Shown here one piece after another: positions 9,331-60,204 of a DNA stretch of 64,000 nt (position 1 is its first letter; each line of letters begins with the position of its first letter). The DNA is from Mycobacterium sp. (lineage in GTDB: Bacteria > Actinomycetota > Actinomycetes > Mycobacteriales > Mycobacteriaceae): contig JAGQTW010000214.1 of the NCBI GenBank assembly GCA_020438785.1, forward strand, positions 2,668 to 66,667. Direction: 5' to 3'. A program made the translations under genes and the position numbers. Under the pieces are notes generated by a model. It was not told the origin of the DNA. It made no database searches and saw only the letters and a list, made by a program, of their open reading frames with translations.

Positions 9331-10356
9331 CTACCGCCGCGGTCCGGTGTAGCTGCGGTCCAGTCCGTTGAGCGGGAACGTTTCGATCCATCCGGCCGAG
9401 AAAGTCGGTATCCGATCGTCGCCCACCCGGCGCACCGACCCGGCCTGCCCGTGATACGCATCGCCCCGGGCGGCGGCCAGGGACCGCATCTGGCCGCGGT
9501 CGGCCGCGGTGAATCGCCATTCGGTGCCCGCCGCGTGATACCGGGCGCTCGACACGTACCTGTCGGCGTCGAGCTGCACCTCGGCGGTGAGCTCGGTGGT
9601 CGCCATGATCGGCCCCCCCTCGTCTGCCGCGACCGCGAATCCCCAGTGCTCCTTGCCCAGACACAGGGCACCGAATTCGTGGCCGCCGTCGGCGTAGAAG
9701 TTGCCGAACGTCACCCAGGCGAGTTCGACGACGTTGAAGATCGGCCCGTTGTTGTAGACCTGGCCGACCGGGCCGTAGAAGTTGTCCATGGACACGAAAC
9801 CGTGGACCTCCCGACCGCCGACGTGGCCGGTGACCCGGAACGGTTGCGAGGCATACAGATTGCCGCCACGCTCGTCGATGTTGGGGGTGTACCACTGATA
9901 ACCAAGACCGAGGCGCGAGCCGCGCAGGTCGAGCAGATCGCCCTCGCTCCAGGAGAACTCGTCATCGGCGACGAACAGTTCGAACGGCTCGCTGTGGGGT
10001 GTGGCCGGCGCGGCGACCCGGAACGAGGATTGGTCGTCGGCCAGCGTCCAGCGCGCCCCCGCGCCGCGCTGCGAACGACCGAACACTTCCGGTGCGATCT
10101 CCAGGTTGTCGGTGCCCACGTTCGACGACAGCTGCAGCCCGCTCGACAGTTCGGTGTTGACCTTGCGCATCGGCGCCAGGAAATTGCCGTCATGGTCCTT
10201 CAGGCAACTCCACCAGTAGGTGGCCATCGGGCGCAGACCGAAGAACTCGCGTTCACACCAGGCGTCCGCGGCGGCGAATTCGCATGTGCTGACCAGGCTT
10301 CGGAAGTCGAAGTTGCCGCGCCGCCGCGATGGCCAGCGCCAGGATCCGCCGGTCAC
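9331..10356 (-). CDS. Uncharacterised AttH/CrtC-like beta-barrel protein (family X, copy 1)
   Basis: 341 aa, GTGA-coupled to the upstream gene. LYASQPFRVTGHVGGREVHGFVSMD motif is shared with four paralogues in the window. Confidence 0.7.
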   Translation of the reverse strand: MTGGSWRWPSRRRGNFDFRSLVSTCEFAAADAWCEREFFGLRPMATYWWSCLKDHDGNFLAPMRKVNTELSSGLQLSSNVGTDNLEIAPEVFGRSQRGAGARWTLADDQSSFRVAAPATPHSEPFELFVADDEFSWSEGDLLDLRGSRLGLGYQWYTPNIDERGGNLYASQPFRVTGHVGGREVHGFVSMDNFYGPVGQVYNNGPIFNVVELAWVTFGNFYADGGHEFGALCLGKEHWGFAVAADEGGPIMATTELTAEVQLDADRYVSSARYHAAGTEWRFTAADRGQMRSLAAARGDAYHGQAGSVRRVGDDRIPTFSAGWIETFPLNGLDRSYTGPRR

Positions 10357-11357
10357 CGCCCTGCCTTCTCGCGGAGGGCACCGGTCTCGACCAGCCTGCC
10401 GTTGTAGGTTTCCATCAGGGCCTCGGTGGCCTTGGGCCTGCGGGTCTCGTCGATGTGGTGCACCCAGCCCTGGCGCCAGCGGTGGCCCTCGATCAGATCG
10501 TGGCGAATGGGGCAGCGGCCGCCCTCGGCGGCCTCCCACACCCAGGTCTCACCGGCGCCGGTGTAGGTGATGCGCTGCGGGAAGGCCGACTCGGAGTCGA
10601 ACGGGCCGTCGAGCTCGGCCTCCACGACGACGTCGTGGGCGATCACCGGCGGCCCGTCACTGCGGTCGATGATCATCACGTTGAAACCCTCGGTTCCGTG
10701 GATCAGATGCCCGCTGTGGATCTCCCCGTCCTCGAACTCGGTCGCGAACGCCACCCAGGCGGTCTCCAGCCTGGTGATGACCGGCCCCTGCATGAACTGC
10801 CTGCCGTCCTTGGTGTGCATGCTGTCGTGGAATACCAGGCCGCTCACCGGAACACCCTTGATGGAGCCCTTCGCCCGGAACAGGCGGGAGGTGTACAGCA
10901 TCGGGTCGTCGGCGTCGACCGCATAGAACTGCAGACCCGAACCGACCCGTTCGCCCGTGATGTGCAGGTCGGCTCCGTCGCGCCACTCCATCGTCGTCTC
11001 GGTGACGGCCATCAGTGCCTCGCCGTCGGGTTTGACCACCTCGTAGCGGCCGCCGGAGTGGCGGTGCTCGATCGGGCCGCCGTAGGAGTTGGTCTCGTCG
11101 GTGGCGTAGCTGAAGTCACCGCCGATCTTGGACTCGCACAGGTGCAGATAGCGGGCGCGGTCGGAGTAGCACCCACGGATGGGCCACCAGTAGTCGCCGG
11201 CTTCGGATCGCACCGAGCCGTAGAAGTACTCCATGTTCATGCTCAGCCCGAGCACGTCGTCCCAGTGGGCTTCCGGCACCGGCTCGATCAGATTCCCGAC
11301 GATCGGGAACCCGTAGTGTCCACTCGTGCGCATCTGATGTGCCACAACAGTTCTCAT
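10353..11357 (-). CDS. Uncharacterised AttH/CrtC-like beta-barrel protein (family X, copy 2)
   Basis: 334 aa, ATGA overlap with the SDR-PEP fusion stop. Motifs LYTSRLFRAKGSIKGVPVSGLVFHD and ETAWVAFATEFEDG. Confidence 0.7.
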   Translation of the reverse strand: MRTVVAHQMRTSGHYGFPIVGNLIEPVPEAHWDDVLGLSMNMEYFYGSVRSEAGDYWWPIRGCYSDRARYLHLCESKIGGDFSYATDETNSYGGPIEHRHSGGRYEVVKPDGEALMAVTETTMEWRDGADLHITGERVGSGLQFYAVDADDPMLYTSRLFRAKGSIKGVPVSGLVFHDSMHTKDGRQFMQGPVITRLETAWVAFATEFEDGEIHSGHLIHGTEGFNVMIIDRSDGPPVIAHDVVVEAELDGPFDSESAFPQRITYTGAGETWVWEAAEGGRCPIRHDLIEGHRWRQGWVHHIDETRRPKATEALMETYNGRLVETGALREKAGR

Positions 11358-13993
11358 TTCTTCTCGTTGATTTCCAGAAGCGTGATGGCGCCGGTGGCGC
11401 CGTCCACTTCGACCAGTGCTCCGTCCGGGAGCCGCCGGGTGGCGTTGCGTGCGTCCACGACGCAGGTGACGTCGAATTCGCGAGCGACGATGGCGGCGTG
11501 CGACATCGGCCCACCGAGGTTGGTGACGACCGCTCCCGCGTAGGCGAACGCGGGGGTGTATCCGACGTCGGTGACCTCGGCGACCAGCACCTCGCCGGGT
11601 TCCAGGTCGTCGATGGTGTGCTGGTCGATGATCCGGACGCGGCCGGTGACACGGCCGCCGCTGACGCCGAGGCCGGTAAGTGTCTGCCCCGGCTCCAGTG
11701 GCGAGACATCCGGCACCGGCGCCCAACGACCGCTGAAGGCCTGGGGAACCCGGACATCGGCCAGCCGCGCCATCTCGGCACGCCTGCGGCTCACCAGGTC
11801 GCGGGCGTCCGGCGGCAGCGCCTCCAGTTCGTCGATGCAGAAGAAGAAGATGTCGTCGACCTGGTCGAGAACACCGCGGCGCACCAGCCGTCCACCGTGC
11901 TCGCGCAACAGCCGGCGCAGGATCCAGGTGGCCCGAACCACCTTGTCCCGCCGGACTTCCCGCTCGCGCAGTTGTCGTCCGACCAGCCCGGCCAGCCGGC
12001 CGGACGGTCGCTCTGCCGGGCCGCTGTCGAGACTCCCGTGCGCCATTGACTTAGCCACCATGCGGACGAATTGCTCAGGGTCGTCGGCGTAGGTGGTCGA
12101 CCGCAACTCGCACTCCCCCGGTCCGCGGTGGCCGACCTGGTCGAGTTCCGCGCGGATGGCCGCGTACAGGCGGGGTGCCCGTTCGCGGATCGCGGGCAGC
12201 AGATCACCAGGACCGGCGAGGACTGCCCTGGCAGCCGGATCGGACTGCGCCATCGCGGCCAAGCGCCGGACGCTGGCGAGAGCTCGTCCGCTGGCGAGTT
12301 CGGCTCCTGCCGTAGGCATCTCACCGCCGCCCAGACGCTCGGCAGCTGTGGCGGTAGCGGTGCACATCAACGCCGCCCAGGCAGCCAGGTTCCAGCCGTG
12401 CACGATGAGGTCGCGAGCGAGCAGGATCAGGCTCTCCAAGCGGTTGTCGTCGAGGTCGGCGAGATCGGACGGCAGCATTGCCTCGAGTTGGTCGACGTCG
12501 TCGACGAACGCCTTCGAGTCGAGTCCCGTACCCGCCAACAGTCCAGCCCCGGTCGCGCCCACCGCCAGGACGTCCCAGATCCGCCGGGATGTCGTGGCCC
12601 TCTCCCGGGGCGGTCGGCGCTCGCCGAACACCGGGGTGTCGCCGAGTTCACGGCCGAAGAACTGTTCGATCATGCTGTCGGGGTTGGTCCCAAGCATGGA
12701 CTCCGCCATGTAGTAGACCGACGTGACACCGCCGTAGACGCGGTGGCCGAACACTCCGATGGAGCGGGTGGCGATCTCGTGCCCGATCACGCCGGGCAGC
12801 CGTAGCCGCTCGGCGATCGACACTCCGCCCGCCCGTAGTCCCCGGATCGTCGACGAGGCCGATGCCGGGCTGAAGGGCCCGGGCAACGCCTCGGAGAGGT
12901 TGCTGGCCACGAACGTCGGGAAGCGGTCGTCGATGGGTGTGTCGAACTCGCCCACCAGCCCTTCCGGACCGGCCGGGTGCACGGCGGCGCCGTCCGGTGG
13001 GGGTGCGTCGGCGCGGGGGATGTTCTGCACGACCGGCATTCGCCACGGCAGAGTGAGGACGGTCTTGCTCAGTGCGATCTTTCCGCGCACGGCGCGCTCG
13101 AAGTCGGTGAGGCACTCCTCGGCATCGAACGCCGGGCGGTAGCCCCACTCGTCCCGGAGCCGGGTGGTGTCCATGATCGGGAAGTTGAGCAGCAGCTCGA
13201 ATTCCGCCGGTGACGCCTCGACCAGTTCCCGCCGGTAGAGCGCGCCCAGGACGGTGTCGAGCAACTTCTTGCGGGCAGGAAACACGCCGCGGTGCAGCTT
13301 GGCGGTGATGTCGCGCACCGTCGGCTCGCCGTCGGCCGCCAGGTTGACCGGCCCGATCTCGCTACCCAGCACGGCCCGGACGAACAGCCGGTGCACATCG
13401 TCGGTGTGCACGATCTGCATCGGCCGGTCGGCGGACCCACCGACGTCTGGGAAGGCCGGCGCGCCCAGCAGACGCATGACGGTGTTGTCGACGTCGCGGC
13501 CGACGACGATGCCCGGCCGGATCGCCACCCACTCCTTGCCCGGGCGGGCCAGCAGGCCCTCGACGTGTGCCTTGTGGAAGGCATAGAAGTGGTCCGGCGC
13601 GGGCTTTAGCTCGTCGTCCTCCCGGAGTCTGACCGAGCCCCCCGGGCGGGCGCCGTACGCCAGGACCGAGGACGCGAAGACGATCCGGCGGCTGCCCGTA
13701 CGATCCATCGCGGCCAGTACGTTCTCGGTGCCACCGATGTTGATCTCGCGGGTCAGCTTCTCGTCCGGATTCGAGTTGACCACCCAGGCGCAGTGGGCCA
13801 CGGCCTCGGCGCCGTCGACAGCCCGCTGTACCTTGCCGGCGTCGCGGATGTCGGCCTCGACGAATGCGCTGTCGGCCAACCAGTTCGACGGCCGGTGCCG
13901 CGCCAGACCGACGACCTCGTGGCCCTGCGCCCGCAACCGTGCCGCGATGCCCCGACCGAAGACGCCGCTGGCGCCGGTGACGGCGATCCGCAT
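11354..13993 (-). CDS. SDR (NAD-dependent epimerase/reductase) + RPH-like domain + PEP-utiliser phospho-His domain fusion (Rv2047c-like), copy 1
   Basis: TGASGVFG, FASS, YAFHK (SDR); SNLSEALPGP and GHRGPGECEL (central); GGPMSHAAIVAREF (swivel His domain). Start ATG 13993 overlaps the upstream stop by 1 nt. Confidence 0.85.
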   Translation of the reverse strand: MRIAVTGASGVFGRGIAARLRAQGHEVVGLARHRPSNWLADSAFVEADIRDAGKVQRAVDGAEAVAHCAWVVNSNPDEKLTREINIGGTENVLAAMDRTGSRRIVFASSVLAYGARPGGSVRLREDDELKPAPDHFYAFHKAHVEGLLARPGKEWVAIRPGIVVGRDVDNTVMRLLGAPAFPDVGGSADRPMQIVHTDDVHRLFVRAVLGSEIGPVNLAADGEPTVRDITAKLHRGVFPARKKLLDTVLGALYRRELVEASPAEFELLLNFPIMDTTRLRDEWGYRPAFDAEECLTDFERAVRGKIALSKTVLTLPWRMPVVQNIPRADAPPPDGAAVHPAGPEGLVGEFDTPIDDRFPTFVASNLSEALPGPFSPASASSTIRGLRAGGVSIAERLRLPGVIGHEIATRSIGVFGHRVYGGVTSVYYMAESMLGTNPDSMIEQFFGRELGDTPVFGERRPPRERATTSRRIWDVLAVGATGAGLLAGTGLDSKAFVDDVDQLEAMLPSDLADLDDNRLESLILLARDLIVHGWNLAAWAALMCTATATAAERLGGGEMPTAGAELASGRALASVRRLAAMAQSDPAARAVLAGPGDLLPAIRERAPRLYAAIRAELDQVGHRGPGECELRSTTYADDPEQFVRMVAKSMAHGSLDSGPAERPSGRLAGLVGRQLREREVRRDKVVRATWILRRLLREHGGRLVRRGVLDQVDDIFFFCIDELEALPPDARDLVSRRRAEMARLADVRVPQAFSGRWAPVPDVSPLEPGQTLTGLGVSGGRVTGRVRIIDQHTIDDLEPGEVLVAEVTDVGYTPAFAYAGAVVTNLGGPMSHAAIVAREFDVTCVVDARNATRRLPDGALVEVDGATGAITLLEINEKK

Positions 13994-15117
13994 CAGGGCT
14001 GTTGCCAGGGGACGACGGGGGCGACGCCCTCCATCGACGTGGTGCCGTCGTGGCTGCGGCGCAACAGCAGGAAGTCCGCCCCCTTGTACGCCCGATGATC
14101 CGAGGGGCCCAGCGTGATGATGGTCCCCGGCCCGCCGGTGCAGGACGGGATGCGGCGCAGGGTGTCCATCGCGTCGCGCAGTGCGGTCGGCGTCACATAC
14201 CGCATCCGGCCCAGCGCCAGGGCGAACGTGTTGCCGATGTCGTAGCCGGTCGACAAACCGGAGGTGGCGTAGCTGTACCCGAAACGCTTGTGGAAGCGCT
14301 CGAGCACCGCCGCGAAGACCTCGTTGCGTTCGTCGTACTGGTCGACGCCGACCCAGCCGTCGATCCGGCGGGCCCGCTCCTCGCTGTAGGTGGCGCTGAC
14401 GAACGCGGTCGTCTGGATCCGCGGCGGGTCCCAGCCGATTGCCTCCAGCGCCGGCCGCACCCACTGGTTCACACCGCCGAGGCCCAGGTACACCAGCGCG
14501 TCGGGTTTGGAGTCCCGGCACACCTCCAGCGCGCCCGTCAGCTCCTCGACACTGGTCGCCGGGTAGACCGGCGGCTCGGCGGTGATCACCAGGCCGTGCG
14601 GCTGCAACTCGTAACGGAAGAACTCCGCGTACTCCTCGCCGATCTGGGTGCGCTCCCGAAGAACTGCGATGCGCTTGTGGCCGTTGGCTTCCAGCCAGGC
14701 CGCCATCACCGCCGGCTCATCCGCCAGCCCGCCGTTGGCGAACGCGTAGGCGTAGTCGCCCCGAAAGCGCACCGAACCACAGATCGTCGCCGTCGGAACC
14801 TGCAGCCGCTCGATCTCGGGAAGCAGCGCCAGGCAGTTGTCCGATGTGAACGGACCCGCGATCCCCAGCACTCCCTCGTCCTCGACGAGCTCGCGGTAGA
14901 CCTTCTTCAGCTCGTGCGCCGACGCCCACGGCTGGGCGTAGACCTCGCGAACCACGATCTCGACATCACGCTCGAGCAGACCCCGCGCCTTGGCGTCCTC
15001 GCACGCCAACTTGACCGCATCCGGCCAGCAGTCGCTCAGGCCCGGATGCTCGGGAAGGTCGATGAGCATGCCCAGCTTGTACGGCTCGATCGGGCGACCG
15101 TGGTACACCGTGGCCAT
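13993..15117 (-). CDS. LivK/AmiC-type (periplasmic binding protein type 1) solute-binding protein lacking a signal peptide
   Basis: Pattern KLGMLI...VLGIAGPFTS...KRIAVL...GEEY...KPDALVYLG...GYD. RBS GGAGGT 6 nt before ATG 15117. No hydrophobic N-terminal segment or lipobox. Confidence 0.72.
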   Translation of the reverse strand: MATVYHGRPIEPYKLGMLIDLPEHPGLSDCWPDAVKLACEDAKARGLLERDVEIVVREVYAQPWASAHELKKVYRELVEDEGVLGIAGPFTSDNCLALLPEIERLQVPTATICGSVRFRGDYAYAFANGGLADEPAVMAAWLEANGHKRIAVLRERTQIGEEYAEFFRYELQPHGLVITAEPPVYPATSVEELTGALEVCRDSKPDALVYLGLGGVNQWVRPALEAIGWDPPRIQTTAFVSATYSEERARRIDGWVGVDQYDERNEVFAAVLERFHKRFGYSYATSGLSTGYDIGNTFALALGRMRYVTPTALRDAMDTLRRIPSCTGGPGTIITLGPSDHRAYKGADFLLLRRSHDGTTSMEGVAPVVPWQQP

Positions 15118-15172
15118 CGTCAAACCTCCGCTGCCACAGTGAATCCGAGTCGGTCAATCACGGCGTTCTCCT

Positions 15173-15763
15173 TCATCTCGGCGCTATTCCCAGCGCGATG
15201 ACGACTTCGTTGACGATCGATGCGATCTGTTCGGGCTCGCCGGCCAGCAGTTCCGGCCGGCACAGGATGTCGTTGGCGACGCCGATTCCCACCACCCAGG
15301 CGAACAAGAGTTCGGCGACCAGCGCCGCATCGGGACGATCGATCGAGTCGGCGATCGTGCCGACGATCTGATCGAAACCCTCCCGGTGCAGCCGGCCGAG
15401 CTGGTCGTTCTCCCGGGCACTGCGGATCAGCGACACCACGGGCGCCGCCTCGCCGCCGCTGCCGCCGAGAATGGTCTGGACGAGGTTGGCTATCGCGGTG
15501 GCCTGGCCGTCTTCGAAGAGGGCGTCGATGTACGCCTTCTGCGGGACGGCCTTGGCGTACAGCCGATCCTTGGATCCGAAATACCGGAAGACCAGGGACT
15601 GGTTGACACCGGCGGCATCGGCGATGTCGCGGACCGACGTTGGCGCGTAGCCGTCTTCGGTGAAGAGATGGCGCGCAGCATTGATGATCGCCAGCTTCTT
15701 GGCCTCCGGATCGCGACGCCAGCGCGGACCGTCGGCGGACTCGGCAACGGCGTTCCCGGCCAC
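15173..15763 (-). CDS. TetR/AcrR family transcriptional regulator
   Basis: IINAARHLFTEDGYAPTSVRDIADAAGVNQSLVFRYFGSKDRL helix-turn-helix. Confidence 0.92.
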   Translation of the reverse strand: MAGNAVAESADGPRWRRDPEAKKLAIINAARHLFTEDGYAPTSVRDIADAAGVNQSLVFRYFGSKDRLYAKAVPQKAYIDALFEDGQATAIANLVQTILGGSGGEAAPVVSLIRSARENDQLGRLHREGFDQIVGTIADSIDRPDAALVAELLFAWVVGIGVANDILCRPELLAGEPEQIASIVNEVVIALGIAPR

Positions 15764-15820
15764 GATCGACCTCCTGGCACTCTCGACGCAGCCCCGGGCC
15801 GCGGTGATCCGTTGCGCCTG

Positions 15821-15850
15821 ATGCTAAGTCCGCCGATTCGCGATAGTCAA
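15821..15850 (-). promoter_or_regulatory. Putative SigA promoter for the TetR-SBP-fusion operon
   Basis: Minus strand reads TTGACT-N18-TAGCAT, 57 bp upstream of the TetR start. Confidence 0.5.
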
Positions 15851-15868
15851 TCCTCGGATTAAATAACT

Positions 15869-16063
15869 TCAGTCCTCGATCGTCAGCGCGCCCTCGGGGC
15901 ACGATTCGACGCCGAGCCGAACCTGGTCTTCCAGACCGGCGGGCACCACCTTGCCGGTGCCGATGGAGCTGTATCCGCTCTCGTCGAGGGTGAAGAACTC
16001 ACCCCCGACGGCCTCGCACATGCCGTGCCCCTGACACTTCTTCGAGTCGACACCGACCTTCAC
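15869..16063 (-). CDS. 3Fe-4S type ferredoxin (P450 partner)
   Basis: CQGHGMC...CPEGA motif, 64 aa; RBS GGAGGGA. Confidence 0.92.
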   Translation of the reverse strand: MKVGVDSKKCQGHGMCEAVGGEFFTLDESGYSSIGTGKVVPAGLEDQVRLGVESCPEGALTIED

Positions 16064-16096
16064 AGCGGTTGTCCCTCCTGCTCTCGGCGGCCCACG

Positions 16097-17688: not shown

Positions 17689-18292
17689 CGGTGCGGGCGG
17701 GCAGGCCGATCGCGCGCGAAATCAGCTGCACCACTGATCGTTTCAAGTCCTCGCGCACAGTGTGGCCCGAACCGTTGGGCCAGTCGAGCGCGTTGCCCCG
17801 GATGATGTAGAGGATCGCCCGCGCATCGGCCACCGGGTCGGCGCACCGCAGTTCACCATTGGCGTGCCCGTCCGCCAACGCCGTGACCAGGGGAGCCGAC
17901 AACGCGGCGATGCACCGCTCCAGGGCCTCCGGGTGGTCGGTCATCACCGTCCGCCAGTTCAGCTTGTCGACCAGGAAGCCACCGCCGGAACGGAACTCAC
18001 CGGCCCGGTCGAGTTCGGCCAGGACGTAGTTCCACACCCGTTCCGTCGCCGTCCGCGCCTGCCGGGACTCGGCTTCCAACTGGGCGGCCAGGGCGTGGAC
18101 CTCCCGCTCGAGCAGCGCGACCACCAACTCGTCCTTGCCGCTGAAATGCCGGTAGAAACTGTGCGTCGACAACCGGGCCTGCCGACAGACGTTGCGAACC
18201 TTGAAATCGCACCGGGCGCTGTCGTTGAGCACCTGCTGGGAGGCCTCGATCAGGGCCTGCCGTTCGTCGGTCCGTTCGTCGGTCTCAGTCAT
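17681..18292 (-). CDS. TetR/AcrR family transcriptional regulator
   Basis: LIEASQQVL...FKVRNVCRQARLSTHSFYRHFSGKDELV HTH. Start MTETDER overlaps the HAD stop. Confidence 0.85.
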   Translation of the reverse strand: MTETDERTDERQALIEASQQVLNDSARCDFKVRNVCRQARLSTHSFYRHFSGKDELVVALLEREVHALAAQLEAESRQARTATERVWNYVLAELDRAGEFRSGGGFLVDKLNWRTVMTDHPEALERCIAALSAPLVTALADGHANGELRCADPVADARAILYIIRGNALDWPNGSGHTVREDLKRSVVQLISRAIGLPARTDG

Positions 18293-18902: not shown

Positions 18903-18958
18903 TTGGGATCCTCCTCTCCGCGAAACGTCCCCCAAGCCGCCCGATCGGATCATAATAG

Positions 18959-20235: not shown

Positions 20236-20244
20236 GCGAGCGCC

Positions 20245-22004: not shown

Positions 22005-22005
22005 C

Positions 22006-24494: not shown

Positions 24495-24528
24495 GGTCGC
24501 GTCCGCTCACTCTTGAGGAGCCACGAAC

Positions 24529-26157: not shown

Positions 26158-26167
26158 GAGATCCGGC

Positions 26168-29549: not shown

Positions 29550-29642
29550 GGTGACGCTCTCAGGTCGTTCAGCATTCTTCGGTGGTGCGCTGTAGCACGA
29601 TCTTGCCCGCCGAGCCGATGACGGCGACGCCTATTGGAAGCA

Positions 29643-33170: not shown

Positions 33171-33221
33171 CCGTCTACTCCACCTGTGCAGTGAGCCGCC
33201 ACGCCGCCCTGCTGGCATTTA

Positions 33222-38679: not shown

Positions 38680-38703
38680 GTCGTTCCTCGTGGTCTCCCC
38701 GGC

Positions 38704-48855: not shown

Positions 48856-48902
48856 CCCTTGACGCACTCTGCAGCGGGAGCCCCGCCGACATTTGCTTAC
48901 TT

Positions 48903-48917
48903 TATAACCAGGTTATA
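48903..48917. promoter_or_regulatory. Palindromic operator TATAACCAGGTTATA
   Basis: Perfect 7-bp arms around a central A. Overlaps a TATACT -10-like hexamer (48914-48919) upstream of the WS/DGAT. Confidence 0.65.
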
Positions 48918-48956
48918 CTATTTGGTCGATCCGGCCGGGATCACAAGGAAATCGCC

Positions 48957-52875: not shown

Positions 52876-54041
52876 CGTCTGGGGGCGCGTGAGAACTCGA
52901 CGGACATGGATTTCACACCGCGCATCATCATCGGCCCGTGCGGTTCGTAGACGTAGTCGTCTGCGAGGCGGAGATCCTCCAGTCGGTCCAGGACGACGTC
53001 CAGCACCACGGTGGCTTCCAGGCGTGCCAGCGACGACCCGATGCAGAAGTGCTCACCGAACCCGAAGGTGTAGTGGGAGCGGTTCTTTGCTGCGGGCCGA
53101 TCCATGTCCCACTCGTTGGGGCGGTCCACTAGGGCGGGGTCCCGGTTGGCCTGTGCGACGGCGTTGCACACCAGCGTGCCCTTCGGGATCGTATGTCCTG
53201 CGATGTCGACGTCGCGCGCCGTCCGCCGGGGAACCCAGTACAGCGGCGGGTCCATCCGCAGCGTCTCCTCAATCACGTTCGGGATCAGCGAGCGATCGGC
53301 CGCCAGACGGTCCCAGCGGTCGGGTTCGGAGAGCAGATAGTGAAACATCGACCCGATCAGGTTTGCGGTGGTGTCAGTGCCGGCGAGGATCAGCTGACGG
53401 ATCAACGACACCAGTTCGGCTGTGCTGAGCCGGTCTTCGCCGTCGTGCACCTCGATCAGTTCACTGAGCAGGTCCTCTCCCGGACTCTCGCGGCGTTCGT
53501 CGATGATGCCGAGCACGTACTCACGCAGCGACGGGTCGGAGTTTCCGTACGTTTCCGACTCCGGAATCGAGGCGGCTATCGCGGCGTCCGCCCACTTGAC
53601 GAACTGGCTGCGATCCCCCGCCGGGATTCCGGCGAGCTCGGCGATCACCATGGCGGGCAGGATGAACGCGAACTCCTTGCACAGATCGGCAGTACCGCGT
53701 TCGACGAAACCGTCGATCAACTCGTGCGCGATGGCGTAGGTCGGCTCCTCCAGGTTCTTGATCGCACGGGGGGTGAATGCCTTGACCACCAACTTGCGCA
53801 TCCGGCTGTGCTGTTCGCCGTCGATGTGCACGAGACTCGGCGTCACGCCATCCTCGAGCGGGCGCAGTTTGTTGCGGAAGTCCTCGGCATCCTTGAACAC
53901 CGCTGCGACGTTCTCCGCTCCGGTGACGACGACGGCGCCACCCTTGGCGTGGAAGACCGGGCACTTCTCGGCTTCGCGCTGCAGTGGTGTGTAGGGGTCG
54001 ACGACCGTGGTGAACGGGTCGAACTGTGCGTCCTCTGGCAT
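52872..54041 (-). CDS. Cytochrome P450, second copy
   Basis: LILAGTDTT, EETLR, FGFGEHFCIG. Start MPEDAQF (ATG 54041). Confidence 0.93.
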   Translation of the reverse strand: MPEDAQFDPFTTVVDPYTPLQREAEKCPVFHAKGGAVVVTGAENVAAVFKDAEDFRNKLRPLEDGVTPSLVHIDGEQHSRMRKLVVKAFTPRAIKNLEEPTYAIAHELIDGFVERGTADLCKEFAFILPAMVIAELAGIPAGDRSQFVKWADAAIAASIPESETYGNSDPSLREYVLGIIDERRESPGEDLLSELIEVHDGEDRLSTAELVSLIRQLILAGTDTTANLIGSMFHYLLSEPDRWDRLAADRSLIPNVIEETLRMDPPLYWVPRRTARDVDIAGHTIPKGTLVCNAVAQANRDPALVDRPNEWDMDRPAAKNRSHYTFGFGEHFCIGSSLARLEATVVLDVVLDRLEDLRLADDYVYEPHGPMMMRGVKSMSVEFSRAPRR

Positions 54042-54052
54042 CCTTCTTGCTC

Positions 54053-54982
54053 TCACTTGCTCTCGTCGACAACGGATATGGGGGCGCCCACCCGCTCGCG
54101 CAGATCGGCTTGGGTCGCCGGGCTGAGCCCGCGCCGGGTGATCAGGTCGACCGCACGGTCGACCAGCTCGGCGTTGGTCGCGGTCGGGAACGCCCACGGG
54201 CAGTCCCCGATGCCGACCCGAATTCCCAACCCCCGGTCCAGGGCACGCTCCCAGAGAGCTTCGCAACGCTCGATCGAGTTCATCGCGTAGGGCACAACCA
54301 CGGTTTCGTGGTCGACGTCGGCCGGGATACGGGACAACAGGAAGTCGATGACATCCGGGTCGGGGTCGTTGTTGGACACCCACCGATCGGAGAAGAACAG
54401 CTTGATGTTCAGTGGCTGGCGCAGGATGCCGATCCGGGCCGCCAATGCCACCCACCGCATGTCGGCCGCGTTGAACACAGCGATGTTGGGGACCAAGCCG
54501 AGGTCGGCGAACCGGTCCAGTTCGGGCGGATAGGGCGGCCGGGAGTTGTTGGGGTCGTCGGGACCGAAACTGATGACGCCGAAGCGGTTCTCATCCTCCA
54601 GCCAGAGCACCCGCTTGACGTGTTGGACCGGGTCGAACGGTGTGAGCAGTAGGCGGGTGCCTGCCGGCGGCCGCTCGGCCAACGCCCAGATGTGCTCAAG
54701 GCTGCCGTGGTAGCTCGGGTAGGCCAGCGGATCGACCTCTTCTGCCGCGGCGCCCAGCACCGTGCGTGACACCTCGTCGTCGGCCCAGGCCTGGATTCCG
54801 TCGTCGTAGCGAGCATGGAAGTGCACGACGGTGGCACCGTGCCGGATGCACTCGACGACGTCGCGGGCCACTTCCTGGGCGCCGTAGGGCACGTTCGGGT
54901 TGTCCTCTTTGGACACGACCTCGTTGACACCCACCTCGAGGTAGACCTTCCCCTGGTCCCGAAAGCTCACCGCGCCAGTCAT
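54053..54982 (-). CDS. Beta-keto acid cleavage enzyme (BKACE/DUF849/Kce family), atypical
   Basis: NPNVPY..EVARD..EC..GA.VVHFHAR and IRVGIGD. Confidence 0.78.
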   Translation of the reverse strand: MTGAVSFRDQGKVYLEVGVNEVVSKEDNPNVPYGAQEVARDVVECIRHGATVVHFHARYDDGIQAWADDEVSRTVLGAAAEEVDPLAYPSYHGSLEHIWALAERPPAGTRLLLTPFDPVQHVKRVLWLEDENRFGVISFGPDDPNNSRPPYPPELDRFADLGLVPNIAVFNAADMRWVALAARIGILRQPLNIKLFFSDRWVSNNDPDPDVIDFLLSRIPADVDHETVVVPYAMNSIERCEALWERALDRGLGIRVGIGDCPWAFPTATNAELVDRAVDLITRRGLSPATQADLRERVGAPISVVDESK

Positions 54983-56160
54983 CGGCGTACCAGGATCGCC
55001 GCACCGGCGGTGGGCCCACCGCCCACGCCGACCGCGACCGTCTCGGGGCGGCCGGCCTGCCGATCACCGCCACGGTCGCGCAATTGCACACAGGCTTCGT
55101 AGAGCAACCCACAGCCGTGTAGGCGTCCACCGGAGAGCTGCCCACCTCCGGTGTTCAGCGGCAGCGGACCGTCCAGGGCGATGCGCTTGCCCGCTTCCAG
55201 GAACGGCCCGGCCTCACCCTTGCCGCAGAACCCCAGCGCCTCCAGCCACATCAGCGGAAGAAACGAGAACCCGTCGTAGAGTTGCACCTGGTCGATGTCC
55301 GCCGGGGTCAGATCGCTGCGCTCCCAGAGGTGAGCCGCGACGTCCCAGGCCGCCATCTCCGTCATGTCCGGCCACTGGTCCCACAATGGGCGGTGCCACA
55401 TCGCCCAGCCGATCGATTCGATGCCGATGGCCGGATGGGGTCCGTCATCGGCGGCTTCGATGTGGGAGACCAAGAAGGCAACCGACCCGTCGCACGGCAC
55501 GTCGCAGTCGTACATGCCGAACGGTGTGCTGATGATCCGCGCACCGAAGTAGTCAGCGAGCGTCATCGGCTGCCGGTATACCGCATCCGGATTGCGGGCG
55601 GCATTGGCCCGGTTGTTGACCGCGATGGTGCCGAGATGTTCCCGGGTGGTACCGAATTCGTGCATGTGGCGCTGAGCGTGTAGCGCGATCCAGTTCACCG
55701 GCGAGTGCGCATCGAAGGGCGCGAGCCACCGCCGGAAGCCGGAGACCGCGACATCCCCCGATCCGGCCAGCGCTGCCGCCCGCCCGGCCGCTCCTTGCGC
55801 GGACGCCTCGCCGACGGTTCGGTAGACCAGCACATTGCGGGCCAGCCCGGTGGCCACGGCCAGGATGGCCGAGAAGAACGCGCCCAGCTGACCGCCCTCA
55901 GGACCGCCGTACTTCCAGTTGGTCCGCAGTCCCAGGGCGGCGTGTACCTCGTCGGCGCCGGGTCCGGCAAGGCCTGGCGTGTCGAAGCCGCCGCCGGGGA
56001 AGGTTGCCAGCCCGTCGATCTCGTCGCGGGTCAGGCCGGCGTCGGCCAGCGCGGCCAGGCAGGCATCGACGGTCAGGGCCATCTCGCTGGACGGCAGTCG
56101 CCGACCGACGGCCGAGGCACCGAAGCCCCGGATGACGGCCTGCTGCTCGGGTCGGGTCAT
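54979..56160 (-). CDS. Thiolase-fold (SCP2/Ltp2-like) protein, copy 2
   Basis: YDCDVPCDG, QLYDGFS, PLNTGGGQLSGGRLHG. Confidence 0.85.
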   Translation of the reverse strand: MTRPEQQAVIRGFGASAVGRRLPSSEMALTVDACLAALADAGLTRDEIDGLATFPGGGFDTPGLAGPGADEVHAALGLRTNWKYGGPEGGQLGAFFSAILAVATGLARNVLVYRTVGEASAQGAAGRAAALAGSGDVAVSGFRRWLAPFDAHSPVNWIALHAQRHMHEFGTTREHLGTIAVNNRANAARNPDAVYRQPMTLADYFGARIISTPFGMYDCDVPCDGSVAFLVSHIEAADDGPHPAIGIESIGWAMWHRPLWDQWPDMTEMAAWDVAAHLWERSDLTPADIDQVQLYDGFSFLPLMWLEALGFCGKGEAGPFLEAGKRIALDGPLPLNTGGGQLSGGRLHGCGLLYEACVQLRDRGGDRQAGRPETVAVGVGGGPTAGAAILVRR

Positions 56161-56570
56161 GGCGTCTCACCGGCTGTCGTGAAGAACGGCGCATACAGGT
56201 CGTCACTAAGCGCCTCGAAGACGACCCGAACTCGCATCCCGATGGTGACCGCTTCCACGGGGGTGTCGACGAGTCGGCTGACGAACCGCAGGCCGGGCTG
56301 CTCGTCGAGTTCGACGACGATCACGGCGTACGGCTCCTGTAGATGCGGCAACCACGGCTGGTGGTTGACGGTGTAGGAGTACACCTTTCCCACACCGCTG
56401 ACCCTCTCGAAGTTCAGTTCCCGCGAAAGGCAGCGGTAGCAGACTGGATTGGGCGGATGCTGCCAGCTTCGACACTCGGCGCACCGCTGCATCTCGAGGT
56501 GCCCGTCGGCCCCGGACCGCCAGAACGGCAGCTCGTCCGGGGTGGGCACCGGTCGCTGTCGGAAGGTCAC
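56157..56570 (-). CDS. DUF35 Zn-ribbon/OB-fold protein, copy 2
   Basis: PFW...RCAEC...HPPNPVCYRC...VYSYTV...IGMRVRVVF. GTG 56570 overlaps the family-X stop. Confidence 0.9.
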   Translation of the reverse strand: MTFRQRPVPTPDELPFWRSGADGHLEMQRCAECRSWQHPPNPVCYRCLSRELNFERVSGVGKVYSYTVNHQPWLPHLQEPYAVIVVELDEQPGLRFVSRLVDTPVEAVTIGMRVRVVFEALSDDLYAPFFTTAGETP

Positions 56571-57571
56571 CGGCCGATGATCCGCCCCGTGGACTCCCAT
56601 GCCGCGATCGCGGGTGGGAAGAACTCGTTGTAGGAGTGGTAGACGACGGGTTTGCGGGTCTCCCCCGCTCGGCGCAGCCAACCCTCGGAGGACCGGTAGA
56701 AGTCACTGCCGGATGCCTGCTCCGGCAGTGCCCCGTCGTCCACCGATGACCACTCCCAGTCGACACCGTCGGCAACGTAGTACATGTGCTCGGGGAAGGT
56801 GTCCGGGCGGTACTTGATGTCACGGGCGGCCACGTCGGACGTGGCGTGCAGAACTTCACCGCCGTCGGTGACGACCACCGCGAAGTTGAATCCGTCTGCG
56901 CCATAGCAGATGTGGCCCATCTCCACCGAACCGTCCTCGTACTCCGTCCCGAACGGGGTCCAGGCCAGTTCGACCCCCTTGAAGAAGTCGCTGTTGCGCC
57001 AGGTGACACCCGGGGGCAGGTAGCACTGGTCGAGCCAGAGGAAACCCTCGGCCGGCTCACCGAAAGCCTTACCCGACACCCGGTGCATCAGCGAGGTGTA
57101 GAACAGCGGCGTCGGCCCGGTGGGCACGTACACCTGCATTCCGGGTCCGATCCGGCGACCGTGGAACGCGAGATCGGCGCCCTCGTGGTAGCGCAACTCG
57201 TGGTCGGTACGCACTAGCTCGAAGGGCTGGCCGGTGGCGTAACCGGCTTCGGCCGGCTTGCTGGCGATGCGGTACTCGTCGCCGGCGGTGGTCACCACCG
57301 GACCGCGGAAGAACTCCCGCCCGGCCGGCATCGTCATCTTCCGCAAAGCGCCGTCGCGGGACTCGAAGCACGTACAATGCATCGAGCCTTCCAGGCCCAG
57401 CACCCCGCGGTAGGCGAAGTGCAGCTTGCCATCGCTGTCGCGGAAGTTCAGATAGAACCACGTAATCGACAGTGGCAGACCGAAGTACGTCCGCGTCGGA
57501 TCGGCGTCCGGCCCGATCGGATCGAATGTCCCGACGACGGTGCGGTGACCGAAATCGCCTTTGGCAGACAC
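56567..57571 (-). CDS. Uncharacterised AttH/CrtC-like beta-barrel protein (family X, copy 5)
   Basis: 334 aa, GTG 57571 overlaps the fusion-3 stop (TAGTG). FYTSLMHRVSGKAFGEPAEGFLWLDQCY and ELAWTPFGTEYEDG. Confidence 0.7.
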   Translation of the reverse strand: MSAKGDFGHRTVVGTFDPIGPDADPTRTYFGLPLSITWFYLNFRDSDGKLHFAYRGVLGLEGSMHCTCFESRDGALRKMTMPAGREFFRGPVVTTAGDEYRIASKPAEAGYATGQPFELVRTDHELRYHEGADLAFHGRRIGPGMQVYVPTGPTPLFYTSLMHRVSGKAFGEPAEGFLWLDQCYLPPGVTWRNSDFFKGVELAWTPFGTEYEDGSVEMGHICYGADGFNFAVVVTDGGEVLHATSDVAARDIKYRPDTFPEHMYYVADGVDWEWSSVDDGALPEQASGSDFYRSSEGWLRRAGETRKPVVYHSYNEFFPPAIAAWESTGRIIGR

Positions 57572-60204
57572 TACGTCACTCCATTCGTCGCTTCGTCGAT
57601 GATGCGGATGGTTCCGGCCGTGCCGTCGACCTCGACGAGCTGACCGTCCGCGAGTCGCTGGGTGGCGAGCACGGCGTTCACGACTGCCGGGATGCCGAAC
57701 TCCCGAGCCACGATCGCCGCGTGCGACATCGGGCCGCCGACATTGGTCACCACCGCTGCCGCACAACCGAAGAACGGTGTCCAGCCGGTGTCGGTGACGT
57801 TGGCGACCAGCACCGCACCGGATTCGAAATCGTCATCGGCGTGCACCATGATGCGGACCCTGCCGCGAGCCACACCGCCCGACACCGCCTGCCCCGTGAT
57901 CACGCCGCCGTCAGCGCCGTCGACCGACTGCTCCGGAGTCCACGGCTGGGTGAAGTGCACCGGATAGTCCAGTGCGGCCAGGCGATCCCGCTCGGCGCGA
58001 CGACGGGTCACCCGATCCTTGGCGTCCGGCGGCGGATAGTAGACCTCGTCGACCGACAGATAGTGCACGTCGTCCGCGGACTCCAGAACACCGCGCTCGG
58101 CCAGCCGCCGGCCCCACTCGCGCAGTGCCATCCTCAACTCGTGGGTGATCCGCATGCTGGCATCGCGGCCGCGTTCCCTGCGTTCCATCGCCGTGATGGC
58201 GACATCGACCAGCTTTCGCCCGACCCTGCTGCGCAACGGTGGTGCGGCCGCGACCGGCGGAGGTTGCGTACTGCCCAGCACCGCGCGCAGCAACAGTTCC
58301 GGGGCGTCGGCGAACATGGGGTTGCTGAGCTCCGTCTCGCCGGGTCCCCGATGGCCGCACTCGGCGATCAGTCGGTCGAACCTGGCCGCGAAGGCGGGCG
58401 CCTCGGTGCGCAGTTTGGCGAAGATGGCGTCCTTCGGGGTCTCGGTGATCAGGGTGCGCAGATGGTCGTCGGCCGCCACCATCGATCCCAGTTCCTGTAC
58501 GCCGGCCAGCATGGCAGCACTGCGCAGGTTCCGGGTGCCGGCCCGGACGTTCATCGCCGCCTCGTGGCCGTAACGTCGGCCGACCATGGTGATGGCCGGT
58601 CCCACCAGGAACGTGTTCATGTTGTTGACGTCCCAGGAGCGCACCACCAGGTCGCTCAGCAATTCCACACGGGCATGCAGTCTTTCGTCGCTCAGCGTCG
58701 TCAGATCCGGCCGACTGGCCGCGAGGCGTTCGGCCCGACGCTCCATGGCGGCCACTTCGGCGCTCAGACCAAGGATCTGCGGGCCGGCTCGCCCCGCAGC
58801 CTTCACCGCGGTCACCAGTTCCGCTGCGGTCATCTTCGGTGCGCGGTAACCGTCCGGCAGGGGGGTGCCGTTCATCTGCTGCTCGAAGCTCTCGGCGGTC
58901 TGGCCGGGAATCGCATTGGCCAGCCGCTTCATGATGGTCATGTTGTTGTAGAGCCGATGACCGATGACCGCCACCTGCTTTGCACTCACCAGATAGGCGA
59001 GGTCCGGGTCGAGGGAGAACAACTGATTGACCATGTTGGCGCCGCTGAACATGATCCTGGTGGCCAGACCGATGGAGAACGGCGTCATCGGTCCGGGAAA
59101 GGCTTCGGACAGGTTGGCGGCCGTCCACTCCGGAATCGCGGGATCTGCTGTGGCGTTGTCGAATTCACCGGTGTACTCCGTCGGCACGACCTGTACCGCG
59201 GTGCCGTCCTCGGCCGAGGTGTCGGGCGGGTGGACCACGGGGATCGCCAGGCTGGTGGGCCTGCGCAGCGATCGGGTTCCGACGGTGATGAAGCTCGATG
59301 AGGTGTCCGTCATGTCGCCAACCGCGTCGGCCGAACTGTAGGCGCAGGTGAAGCCGAACTCCTCACGCAACCGACGGGTGTCGCCCAGTGGGTAGTGCAG
59401 GAAGAGTTCGATCAGGTCGGGCACCGACTCGAGATTGTCCGCATTGCCAGCGAGCCCGGCCAGCACGCGCGCGAAGCGTTCGCCGCAGTTCACCACCGGC
59501 CGGCCGACGATATGGCCCATCTCGGTGAAGGTCAGCGCGTCGTCGGCATTGAGGTTGACCGTGCCGGTCGGCCCGCCGAGGGCCGCCTGCGCGCAGAACC
59601 GGCCGACGTCGTCGACGTGCACCAGTTGCATCCGGGCGTTCCGCCCGGGTGTGACGACCACCGGCTGACGGAAGATGTTGGCCGGCGCACTCCACGCGCT
59701 GCGCCCCACGATCACCGTGGGGCGCACGTTGACCGCCTCGACGCCGGAGTCGAGAATCATCTTCTCCGCGCGCATCTTGTTGCGCTCGTAGTGAAACGAT
59801 GCGGCAGGGCGCGGTGTCTCGTCTTCGGTGTAGGGCTGCGGGTGGTCGGCGTGACCGCCGTAGACGGTGATCGAGGAGGCGAAGACCATTCGGCGGCAGT
59901 CATGGTCGGCCATGGCCCGCAGCAGGTTGGTGGTCCCGCCGATGTCGATTCCCTCAGCGACCTCCGCGCTCTGCATGGCCGAGACGGTCCAGGCGAAGTG
60001 TGCGACTCCGGTGCAGCCCGCGACTGCCCGCGACACGGCCTCGGCGTCCTGGATGTCGGCAGCGACGTATTCGACTCCGGGCACCCTGATCGCGGGTTCG
60101 CGTCGGGCGAGGGCCACCACGTCGGCGCCCATCCGGCGCAGCCACTTGACCGTCGCCGAACCGGCGGCGCCGGTGCCGCCGGTGACGAGAACCCGTCCTG
60201 GCAT
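57571..60204 (-). CDS. SDR + RPH-like + PEP-utiliser phospho-His fusion (Rv2047c-like), copy 3
   Basis: TGGTGAAG, FASS, YERNK; ANLSEAFPGP, GHRGPGETEL; GGPMSHAAIVAREF. Confidence 0.85.
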   Translation of the reverse strand: MPGRVLVTGGTGAAGSATVKWLRRMGADVVALARREPAIRVPGVEYVAADIQDAEAVSRAVAGCTGVAHFAWTVSAMQSAEVAEGIDIGGTTNLLRAMADHDCRRMVFASSITVYGGHADHPQPYTEDETPRPAASFHYERNKMRAEKMILDSGVEAVNVRPTVIVGRSAWSAPANIFRQPVVVTPGRNARMQLVHVDDVGRFCAQAALGGPTGTVNLNADDALTFTEMGHIVGRPVVNCGERFARVLAGLAGNADNLESVPDLIELFLHYPLGDTRRLREEFGFTCAYSSADAVGDMTDTSSSFITVGTRSLRRPTSLAIPVVHPPDTSAEDGTAVQVVPTEYTGEFDNATADPAIPEWTAANLSEAFPGPMTPFSIGLATRIMFSGANMVNQLFSLDPDLAYLVSAKQVAVIGHRLYNNMTIMKRLANAIPGQTAESFEQQMNGTPLPDGYRAPKMTAAELVTAVKAAGRAGPQILGLSAEVAAMERRAERLAASRPDLTTLSDERLHARVELLSDLVVRSWDVNNMNTFLVGPAITMVGRRYGHEAAMNVRAGTRNLRSAAMLAGVQELGSMVAADDHLRTLITETPKDAIFAKLRTEAPAFAARFDRLIAECGHRGPGETELSNPMFADAPELLLRAVLGSTQPPPVAAAPPLRSRVGRKLVDVAITAMERRERGRDASMRITHELRMALREWGRRLAERGVLESADDVHYLSVDEVYYPPPDAKDRVTRRRAERDRLAALDYPVHFTQPWTPEQSVDGADGGVITGQAVSGGVARGRVRIMVHADDDFESGAVLVANVTDTGWTPFFGCAAAVVTNVGGPMSHAAIVAREFGIPAVVNAVLATQRLADGQLVEVDGTAGTIRIIDEATNGVT

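What the first reader, a model, noticed from the sequence alone, without database searches (positions are those of the whole stretch)
9331..60204. Candidate split dikinase-type phosphotransfer system: three ATP-grasp-less SDR/phospho-His fusions plus one barrel-less PPDK
Seen: three ~870-aa paralogues (11354-13993, 40188-42791, 57571-60204). Each has an intact SDR (GxxGxxG, S, YxxxK), a conserved central N-x-SEA-x-PGP / GHRGPxE-x-EL domain and an intact swivel His (GGxMSHAAxVARE), but no ATP-grasp motifs (no VRSS/VRSG, no QxM, no DIE[WF]...LQxR). In the same island, 24529-26157 has a complete ATP-grasp and His domain but stops before the pyruvate TIM barrel. Known: rifampicin phosphotransferase combines ATP-grasp, substrate and His domains in one chain, and Thauera phenylphosphate synthase splits the ATP-binding part from the His/substrate part into separate subunits. 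The single M. tuberculosis homologue Rv2047c lies beside pks12. Inference: the short PPDK is a shared ATP-driven phospho-donor for three substrate-specific reduce-then-phosphorylate enzymes acting on lipid alcohols inside a catabolic, not PKS, pathway. Family-X proteins and HAD phosphatases may act on the phospho-intermediate.
Basis: partly seen in the sequence, partly recalled or inferred. Interest (0 to 1): 0.85.

Follow-up and report, generated by a model that had tools for sequence, protein, structure and literature searches.

The report
Shared phosphate donor for split kinases
A sludge mycobacterium carries three reductase-kinase fusion enzymes that lack an ATP-binding part and one cut-down pyruvate phosphate dikinase that likely loads phosphate onto all of them; the pairing recurs across mycobacteria and would give the tuberculosis kinase VadK a concrete job, likely phosphorylating mycoketide lipid through Rv2047c.

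Summary
Confirmed: three minus-strand SDR / RPH-like / phospho-His fusions with no ATP-grasp, plus one barrel-less PPDK. The latter belongs to the family of M. tuberculosis VadK (Rv1127c), which is published to autophosphorylate and is read there as a methylcitrate-cycle regulator.

In 299 same-genus genomes, 133 of 137 with the short PPDK hold an ATP-grasp-less acceptor, and 133 of 142 with such an acceptor hold the short PPDK. In 23 further genomes lacking it, the related enzymes carry their own ATP-grasp. Separate islands carry their own short PPDK. An Rv1126c-like protein tracks it (137 of 138); its gene lies about 38 kb upstream here. Published TnSeq tables give Rv1127c, Rv1126c, Rv2047c and pks12 one phenotype that prpC/prpD lack.

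Best reading (0.72): one PPDK-type donor feeds several HpeH/RPH-like acceptors. This is a variant of the PpsAB/CreHI/HpeHI kinases. Transfer, substrate and SDR role are untested, and the complex prediction could not be run. This scan noted VadK + Rv1126c + second-His modules earlier on other DNA; I saw no Rv2047c/pks12 link there.

The parts
11354..13993 (-). Fusion 1: extended SDR + RPH-like substrate domain + swivel His832; sister group to the PKS-linked Rv2047c-like proteins
   Evidence: (NF004520 988 bits, cut-off 1509)
40188..42791 (-). Fusion 2 (His825), first gene of a run with ALDH, P450 and amidohydrolase
57571..60204 (-). Fusion 3 (His828), between a HAD gene and family-X gene X5
24529..26157 (+). 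Barrel-less PPDK, VadK family (ATP-grasp + swivel His423); proposed shared donor
   Evidence: (NF004531 871 bits, cut-off 456; TIGR01828 471, cut-off 843)
19084..27013 (+). Conserved run ACAD-ACAD-ECH-SDR-acyl-CoA ligase-short PPDK-mycofactocin SDR
   Evidence: (same order in G287, G154, G107, G282, G149)
9331..11357 (-). Family-X genes X1 and X2 directly downstream of fusion 1 (ATGA overlap); DUF7064/CrtC-like by language-model features of paralogue X5 only
44907..45926 (-). Family-X gene X3
50391..51410 (-). Family-X gene X4 (start approximate)
56567..57571 (-). Family-X gene X5, overlapping the stop of fusion 3
18285..18953 (-). HAD phosphatase-like gene; candidate for removing the phosphate
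   Evidence: TIGR02247 below cut-off
60219..60860 (-). HAD phosphatase-like gene just upstream of fusion 3 (start approximate)
   Evidence: same place in G149, G154, G107, G131, G113
37399..40191 (-). ALDH and cytochrome P450 following fusion 2
51427..56681 (-). ChsH2-like, Ltp2-like thiolase, BKACE, P450 and ALDH following fusion 3 and X5
13993..16096 (-). Ferredoxin-like, TetR-like and ligand-binding (PF13458) genes upstream of fusion 1; the last overlaps its start codon
   Evidence: ferredoxin and TetR labels read from the translations

Best explanation
The barrel-less PPDK (24529-26157) is likely the shared ATP-driven phosphate donor for the three fusions, which have a substrate domain and a phospho-His swivel but no ATP-binding domain. 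Shown here: the domain anatomy, the RPH-like fold with conserved Arg678/Glu679, the co-occurrence and the linkage. Shown in print for the M. tuberculosis relative VadK: ATP/Mg-dependent phosphorylation of its own swivel His, which is needed in vivo. Inferred route: ATP, then His423 of the donor (dikinase chemistry, AMP released), then the swivel His of a fusion, then a hydroxyl of that fusion's own substrate. An Rv1126c-like winged-helix/four-helix-bundle protein (gene about 38 kb upstream on the adjoining contig) likely acts as bound adaptor or shuttle. In this island the phosphate is probably a temporary handle on a hydrophobic compound. The SDR would make or oxidise the hydroxyl, P450/ALDH/CoA enzymes would work on the phosphorylated form, and the HAD enzymes would remove the phosphate, as in the Hpe pathway. 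The substrate is unknown.
For: (1) Genus sample, 299 scored genomes at least 90% complete. Short PPDK (E<=1e-85 to P0001) in 137; SDR-type fusion (E<=1e-140 to A2) in 128; both in 119. Of the 18 'short only', 14 have a stand-alone substrate+His protein: 10 within 2.6 kb, 3 within 62-75 kb, 1 on another contig. Totals are 133 of 137 and 133 of 142. (2) All 32 genomes listed with the stand-alone acceptor clade (E<1e-145, frames under 780 aa) have the short PPDK. (3) Control: 23 genomes without the short PPDK matched the acceptor profile and were not already counted. Of their 25 matches, 22 carry an in-frame ATP-grasp, 2 have it in the frame just upstream, and 1 is a fragment. The His-less degenerate paralogues also occur without it (3 of 3 read). 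(4) Separate islands carry separate donor copies. Cluster B (fusion 3 type) has its own 52-57%-identical copy in G154, G107, G131, G113 and G149; PKS+fusion clusters have one 3-13 kb away in G046, G257 and G066. (5) Class sample of 300: 9 of 9 non-genus genomes with the short PPDK have such acceptors, and 4 more (genus g52) have a divergent short PPDK with an Rv1126c-like neighbour. (6) Rv1126c-like gene in 137 of 138 short-PPDK genomes and 3 of 162 others; fused to it in G046; C277 joins C11 by a 25-base overlap and by G287 synteny. (7) PMC7058343 S7 table, hemin versus high mycobactin log2FC: Rv2047c 8.53, ppdK 4.91, pks12 4.10, Rv1126c 3.77 (rows 1, 12, 17 and 19 of the sorted head); prpD 0.13, prpC -0.02. 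(8) PMC3182942 cholesterol/glycerol ratios: ppdK 0.034, Rv1126c 0.086, Rv2047c 0.099, pks12 0.152; only pks12 is significant. (9) VadK His422 autophosphorylates, and Rv1126c co-purifies until a 2 M NaCl wash (PMC13400623). (10) His423 is invariant in 50 of 50 aligned donors.
Against: No phosphotransfer has been measured for any pair. 9 of 142 acceptor-bearing genomes lack the short PPDK. All 8 read (G117's C-terminal His motif was not printed) keep the swivel His. G148 and G311 have an intact PKS and fusion, G140/G190/G193 have isolated copies, G090 and G220 have broken PKS genes, and G087 and G117 are 320-contig drafts. 4 of 137 short-PPDK genomes show no intact acceptor: G040, G303, G289 (long matches not inspected) and G188 (fusion broken). 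In the class sample 5 genomes (G353, G379, G578, G496, G560) have 585-610-aa acceptors of another clade without this donor. The VadK pull-down table lists PrpC, PrpD, Mfd, Rv1179c and PpsE, not Rv2047c (nor Rv1126c), and B12 rescues the mutant. The TnSeq phenotype is shared with unrelated envelope genes (mmpL5, murI, mmpL11) and may involve polar effects. Kin are not independent, so the counts overstate. Searches scored only 3-4 candidates per genome in the large runs. Several of the 119 fusion matches are split or cut by contig ends and were not each checked.
Confidence: 0.72

Rival explanations
1. Same partners, one His step: the fusion's swivel docks directly on the donor's ATP-grasp, as HpeH does on HpeI, and the donor's own His423 serves another purpose. 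This is a sub-variant inside the best explanation (my split: about 0.45 His-to-His, 0.27 direct).
For: This is the mechanism described for PpsAB and HpeHI. The swivel domains are homologous (32-39% identity).
Against: His423 is invariant in 50 of 50 donors. VadK H422A and H422D both fail to complement. The described grasp-only donors are PEP-synthase-like, not PPDK-like.
Confidence: 0.27
2. The short PPDK is a regulatory histidine kinase, as published for VadK (binding methylcitrate synthase). It co-occurs with the fusions through shared ancestry and shared islands, and the fusions get phosphate elsewhere.
For: PMC13400623: PrpC/PrpD pull-down, raised methylcitrate synthase activity, B12 rescue. 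G188 keeps the short PPDK with a broken fusion, and G040 and G303 have none.
Against: No methylcitrate genes were recognised among the window's genes. Donor copies sit within 3 kb of acceptors in 10 'short only' genomes. prpC/prpD do not share the mycobactin phenotype. pks12 shares the cholesterol defect. The paper's MCS/VadK model has ipTM 0.36 and no phospho-acceptor was identified. The two roles need not exclude each other.
Confidence: 0.15
3. The fusions are charged by a general carrier (PEP synthase, PTS Enzyme I or full PPDK) or by exchange from a phosphorylated metabolite, and the short PPDK serves another island enzyme.
For: The genome has a PEP synthase and an Enzyme I-like protein. 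G140, G190 and G311 have a fusion plus a full PPDK. HpeH and PpsA alone catalyse phospho-exchange.
Against: Those carriers are widespread, yet acceptors without an ATP-grasp are almost confined to short-PPDK genomes (133 of 142), and the enzymes in the other genomes carry their own grasp.
Confidence: 0.1
4. The Rv1126c-like protein is only a MarR-type transcription regulator of the donor gene, with no part in transfer. This concerns the third component only.
For: Residues 1-72 match MarR winged helices (Z 12.7, rmsd 1.2, 72 aligned). Atlas cluster names include 'putative MarR family regulator'.
Against: It is fused to the donor in G046 and co-purifies with VadK. Its helical domain has invariant His173/His180 in SYHxxWxxxH (20 of 20). 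Its insertions share the loss-of-function phenotype.
Confidence: 0.3

Closest known systems
Two-component small-molecule dikinases HpeHI, CreHI, PpsAB(C), AcvAB (PMC12167813, PMC9618137, PMC6114531)
   Same: ATP-binding part separate from an RPH-like substrate+swivel-His subunit; Met before the SH motif in the acceptor; a phosphatase in the cluster (HpeD).
   Different: The donor here is PPDK-type with its own conserved His. One donor goes with several acceptors 10-31 kb away. The acceptors carry an N-terminal SDR. An Rv1126c-like third protein tracks the donor. The substrate is not known to be a phenol.
M. tuberculosis VadK (Rv1127c) with Rv1126c (PMC13400623)
   Same: ATP-grasp + His, no pyruvate barrel. 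His context GGA(T/A)SHAAVVSRE agrees with the paper's mutagenesis primer. P0001 passes the cut-off of NF004531, the short-PPDK model; that VadK is in this model is my inference from architecture and motif.
   Different: Published as a methylcitrate-cycle regulator with no identified phospho-acceptor. Here it sits in an acyl-CoA operon among acceptor genes, and the Rv1126c-like gene is about 38 kb away.
M. tuberculosis Rv2047c beside pks12 (PMC2443190, PMC7058343; NCBIfam NF004520)
   Same: SDR + central + swivel-His architecture; fusion 1 is sister to the PKS-linked group (100 support, FastTree).
   Different: All three score below the family cut-off, there is no PKS in the window, and the SDR catalytic Tyr is kept here but missing at that column in 76 of 76 Rv2047c-like rows. 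Rv2047c itself was not aligned.
Rifampin phosphotransferase RPH (5FBT, 5HV1) and PigC/RedH/HapC
   Same: Substrate-domain and swivel fold; RPH Arg666/Glu667 align with invariant Arg678/Glu679.
   Different: An SDR stands where RPH has its ATP-grasp, so the enzyme cannot charge itself.

Membership tests
Canonical PPDK (TIGR01828) | ATP-grasp and swivel His | tested here: met
Canonical PPDK (TIGR01828) | C-terminal pyruvate/PEP barrel, about 870 aa | tested here: not met
   542 aa, no PF02896, 471 bits against cut-off 843; stop supported by independent contigs
VadK-type short PPDK (NF004531) | score over the family cut-off; barrel-less architecture | tested here: met
   871 bits against 456
VadK-type short PPDK (NF004531) | Rv1126c-like partner in the same operon | tested here: not met
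   not adjacent; two copies elsewhere, one about 38 kb upstream on adjoining contig C277
VadK-type short PPDK (NF004531) | ATP/Mg-dependent His autophosphorylation | not testable with these tools
   shown only for VadK
Two-component dikinases (HpeHI/CreHI/PpsAB) | acceptor = RPH-like substrate domain + swivel His, no ATP-grasp | tested here: met
Two-component dikinases (HpeHI/CreHI/PpsAB) | donor = about 40 kDa ATP-grasp-only subunit of PEP-synthase type | tested here: not met
   donor is 542 aa, PPDK-type, with its own His; no grasp-only gene found in the 64%-complete assembly with PPDK queries
Two-component dikinases (HpeHI/CreHI/PpsAB) | both subunits needed for substrate phosphorylation; phenolic substrate | not testable with these tools
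   no assay; substrate unknown
Rv2047c family (NF004520) | SDR + central + swivel architecture | tested here: met
Rv2047c family (NF004520) | equivalog cut-off 1509 bits; operon with pks12 | tested here: not met
   988, 450 and 453 bits; no PKS in the window
Rifampin phosphotransferase (NF041857) | N-terminal ATP-grasp in the same chain | tested here: not met
HPt-like or Enzyme-I-like helical carrier (for the Rv1126c-like protein) | four-helix bundle with a phospho-accepting His | tested here: inconclusive
   helical bundle and two invariant His seen; best bundle match is generic (5w93, Z 12.3); the domain was not folded alone

The most novel reading that the evidence does not exclude
A three-part His-to-His relay (PPDK-derived donor, Rv1126c-like shuttle, interchangeable RPH-like acceptors) works as a PTS-like hub that charges many small-molecule kinases from one ATP-grasp. 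In M. tuberculosis its only acceptor is Rv2047c, so VadK's real job is the missing phosphorylation step of mannosyl-phosphomycoketide synthesis, and its methylcitrate and virulence phenotypes are largely downstream of that.
Probability: 0.35. Interest if true: 0.9.

Novelty: new variant of a known kind. Interest (0 to 1): 0.75.

Why it matters
The phosphorylation step of mycoketide synthesis is described as unknown (PMC2443190), and the 2026 VadK paper found an essential phospho-His but no acceptor. The comparative and TnSeq evidence names a candidate acceptor, Rv2047c, and a third partner, Rv1126c, so both questions become directly testable. A harmless-looking sludge organism offers one donor and six acceptors for the chemistry. 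It would also re-annotate many actinobacterial 'ppdK' and 'PEP-utilizing' genes as one-donor, many-acceptor kinase systems. In the library searched, only PMC7058343 holds ppdK or Rv1127c together with pks12 or Rv2047 (one search listed 8 of 9 Rv2047c papers), and its passages draw no link. Subscription papers were not searched.

Tried and rejected
Complex prediction (donor 12-468 with fusion 1 residues 345-876): the queue was full and the job never ran, so there is no verdict on binding.

Assembly error as the cause of the short PPDK: rejected (91%-identical orthologue in G287). A free PPDK barrel gene: not found in the assembly.

No RNA holder was listed, so expression is untested. Family X: no Pfam or NCBIfam hit; only a language-model lead to DUF7064/CrtC_C for X5, not folded. 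Rv1126c-like protein: no Foldseek match at E<=0.001.

My first motif scan missed the His of G140/G190/G193 (GAxMSH); one search corrected this and they count as exceptions. In the tree several rows labelled 'short' are full PPDKs cut by locus ends. That tree is the quick search, and the separate position of the g52 short PPDKs sits on a long branch, so a second origin is not claimed.

The Fisher test is not used because kin are not independent. G217 was not scored and is left out of the 299. G124 (E 6e-76) fell under the short-PPDK threshold and was not inspected.

The supplements of PMC6851703 held no rows for the four genes. The VadK supplements mention Rv2047c only in the RNA-seq table; the raw pull-down data were not seen and may bear on the claim. 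The CreHI paper was not held.
Full report
OBSERVATION. The window is G000:C11:2668-66667, from a 64%-complete genome. Close homologues of its proteins are named Mycobacterium, and the DNA is held by sludge and wastewater metagenomes. The three fusions are real minus-strand genes, 36-37% identical, each with PF01370 and PF00391 and without PF01326. SDR, central and His motifs are present in 3 of 3 and ATP-grasp motifs in 0 of 3. An AF2 model of fusion 1 from 119 rows (pLDDT 87.6, pTM 0.91) matches rifampin phosphotransferase best, over about 600 columns, then extended SDRs. RPH Glu667 aligns with Glu679; Arg678 and Glu679 are invariant in 119 of 119 rows; RPH Arg666 is named as catalytic in PMC13534948 (passages). 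The 542-aa gene has ATP-grasp and His domains only, passes the cut-off of the short-PPDK model NF004531 and fails TIGR01828. Its stop is supported by contigs of 2 of 4 other runs.

THE WIDER ISLAND. The assembly holds five SDR fusions, one SDR-less acceptor, one His-less degenerate copy and a single short PPDK. Contig C277 overlaps the start of C11 by 25 bases and follows it in G287 synteny. That places an Rv1126c-like gene about 38 kb upstream of the short PPDK; synteny also ties C7 and C236 to the same region. The window joins two conserved clusters. Cluster A (fusion 1 with X2 and X1; HAD; ACAD-ACAD-ECH-SDR-ligase-short PPDK-SDR; fusion 2 with ALDH and P450) recurs in G287, G154, G107, G282 and G149. 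Cluster B (ligase, amidohydrolase, HAD, fusion 3, X5, ChsH2-like, thiolase, BKACE, P450, ALDH, X4) recurs in G149, G154, G107, G131 and G113, where it has its own more distant short PPDK (52-57% identity; a separate clade for the four copies in the tree).

CO-OCCURRENCE. Among 299 scored same-genus genomes: both 119, short PPDK only 18, fusion only 9, neither 153. On re-test 14 of the 18 carry stand-alone substrate+His proteins of about 540-620 aa, 10 of them within 2.6 kb of the short PPDK; G116, G070 and G166 have three such genes around one donor and G261 has four. They share the NxxEAxP and GxxGPxEGE motifs, and DUF7064/7065 genes often sit beside them, as family X does here. Totals are 133 of 137 and 133 of 142. 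A search with the acceptor profile found the stand-alone clade in 32 listed genomes, all with the short PPDK. It also hit 23 further genomes that lack the short PPDK; there 22 of 25 matches have an in-frame ATP-grasp, 2 have it just upstream and 1 is a fragment. Self-sufficient enzymes therefore occur without the donor, and grasp-less ones almost only with it. In a class-wide sample of 300, 9 of 9 non-genus short-PPDK genomes have acceptors, and 4 more have a divergent short PPDK. The Rv1126c-like gene is in 137 of 138 short-PPDK genomes and 3 of 162 others.

AGAINST. Nine fusion-bearing genomes lack the donor. G148 and G311 have an intact PKS, and G140, G190 and G193 keep the His, so these five are real exceptions unless assembly gaps hide it; G090 and G220 have broken PKS genes; G087 and G117 are fragmented drafts. 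Four donor-bearing genomes show no intact acceptor. Five class-level genomes have acceptors of another clade without this donor. Kin are not independent, and the large searches scored 3-4 candidates per genome.

LITERATURE. PMC13400623 (read: parts 1-6 of 12, passages, supplement search) shows that Rv1127c/VadK lacks the barrel, autophosphorylates His422 with ATP/Mg, needs that His in vivo and co-purifies with Rv1126c. It proposes regulation of the methylcitrate cycle; 'mycoketide' does not occur in it, and its pull-down table lists neither Rv2047c nor Rv1126c. PMC2443190 (passages) proposes Rv2047c for release and phosphorylation of mycoketide, with no donor. PMC7058343 (passages, supplement rows, first part of S7) gives Rv2047c, ppdK, pks12 and Rv1126c log2FC 8.53, 4.91, 4.10 and 3.77, against 0.13 and -0.02 for prpD and prpC; other envelope genes share the phenotype. 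PMC3182942 (passages, supplement rows) shows all four low on cholesterol, significant only for pks12; prpCD are low too, so this does not separate the readings. PMC12167813 (part 1 of 6, passages), PMC9618137 (passages) and PMC6114531 (passages) define the two-component dikinases: an RPH-like acceptor plus a grasp-only, PEP-synthase-like donor, forming no stable complex in HpeHI, with the phosphatase HpeD acting later. That the Cre pathway uses a P450, an ALDH and a HAD on phosphorylated intermediates is recalled; the paper was not held. PMC6851703 (one passage, supplement search) gave nothing relevant.

MECHANISM. Most likely: ATP to donor His423, to the fusion's swivel His, to a substrate hydroxyl. 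The first step is shown only for VadK; the other two are inferred from anatomy, co-occurrence and the HpeHI/RPH precedent. The donor keeps the PPDK Thr before SH (GGATSH) and the fusions have the HpeH/RPH Met. The Rv1126c-like protein folds as a MarR-type winged helix plus a helical bundle with two invariant His; adaptor, shuttle and plain regulator all remain open. The SDR is intact in the window's fusions and in 42 of 43 island-type rows, but its Tyr column is empty or changed in 76 of 76 Rv2047c-like rows. Fusion 1 is sister to the PKS-linked group. So phosphotransfer is the conserved core, and 'reduce then phosphorylate' is possible here but not general. The neighbours (P450s, ALDHs, ACAD pairs, ChsH2/Ltp2-like genes, HADs, and mce permease genes in the G287 equivalent just upstream) suggest breakdown or modification of a hydrophobic compound with phosphate as a temporary handle; this is inference.

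VERDICT. A new variant of the two-component dikinases: a PPDK-type donor with its own His, one donor for many acceptors, SDR-fused acceptors and a third partner. Earlier notes of this scan reached the VadK + Rv1126c + second-His idea on other DNA and gave me the HpeHI/CreHI lead. The link to Rv2047c/pks12 was not among the notes shown, nor drawn in the papers found. Coupling 0.72; interest 0.75.

Noticed in passing
G000:C31:2567-4984; L030, L031, L033: A degenerate paralogue class next to a thiolase-like gene: eroded SDR, with the swivel His lost or the whole swivel domain gone (NF008972-like); possibly a pseudo-enzyme.
   Followed up: partly
L106:11602-13764 (G046): Short PPDK fused to the Rv1126c-like domain, beside PKS, fusion and MmpL genes and also beside a PrpR-like regulator and isocitrate lyase.
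   Followed up: partly
alignment A4: Rv2047c-like proteins lack the SDR catalytic Tyr at the YxxxK column (0 of 76), which questions the published reductive-release proposal; Rv2047c itself was not aligned.
   Followed up: partly
L097, L098, L099, L100 (G116, G070, G166, G261): Clusters with three or four stand-alone acceptors around one donor, with DUF7064/7065, luciferase-like and FAD-oxidoreductase genes; AveC-like and mce permease genes in G116.
   Followed up: partly
L203, L205, L207, L209 (genus g52): A divergent short-PPDK clade that groups nearer full PPDKs in the quick tree yet keeps the Rv1126c-like neighbour; possibly a second truncation, on a long branch.
   Followed up: partly
L096:13079-15109 (G220): An APH/EcKL kinase fused to DUF7065/DUF7064 near the PKS locus, a second link between this fold and phosphorylation.
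   Followed up: no
window 28119-33218, 48819-50420: A carboxylic acid reductase (NF041592 over cut-off) and two wax-ester synthase genes inside the island; the first pair did not appear in the G287 stretch compared.
   Followed up: no
window 33973-36130: Two tandem 2,4-diaminopentanoate-dehydrogenase-like genes beside an amidohydrolase, hinting at a nitrogen-containing substrate.
   Followed up: no
G000:C384:7841-8440: A second Rv1126c-like gene with no short PPDK beside it; close matches occur in G133 and G265, which lack the short PPDK.
   Followed up: no
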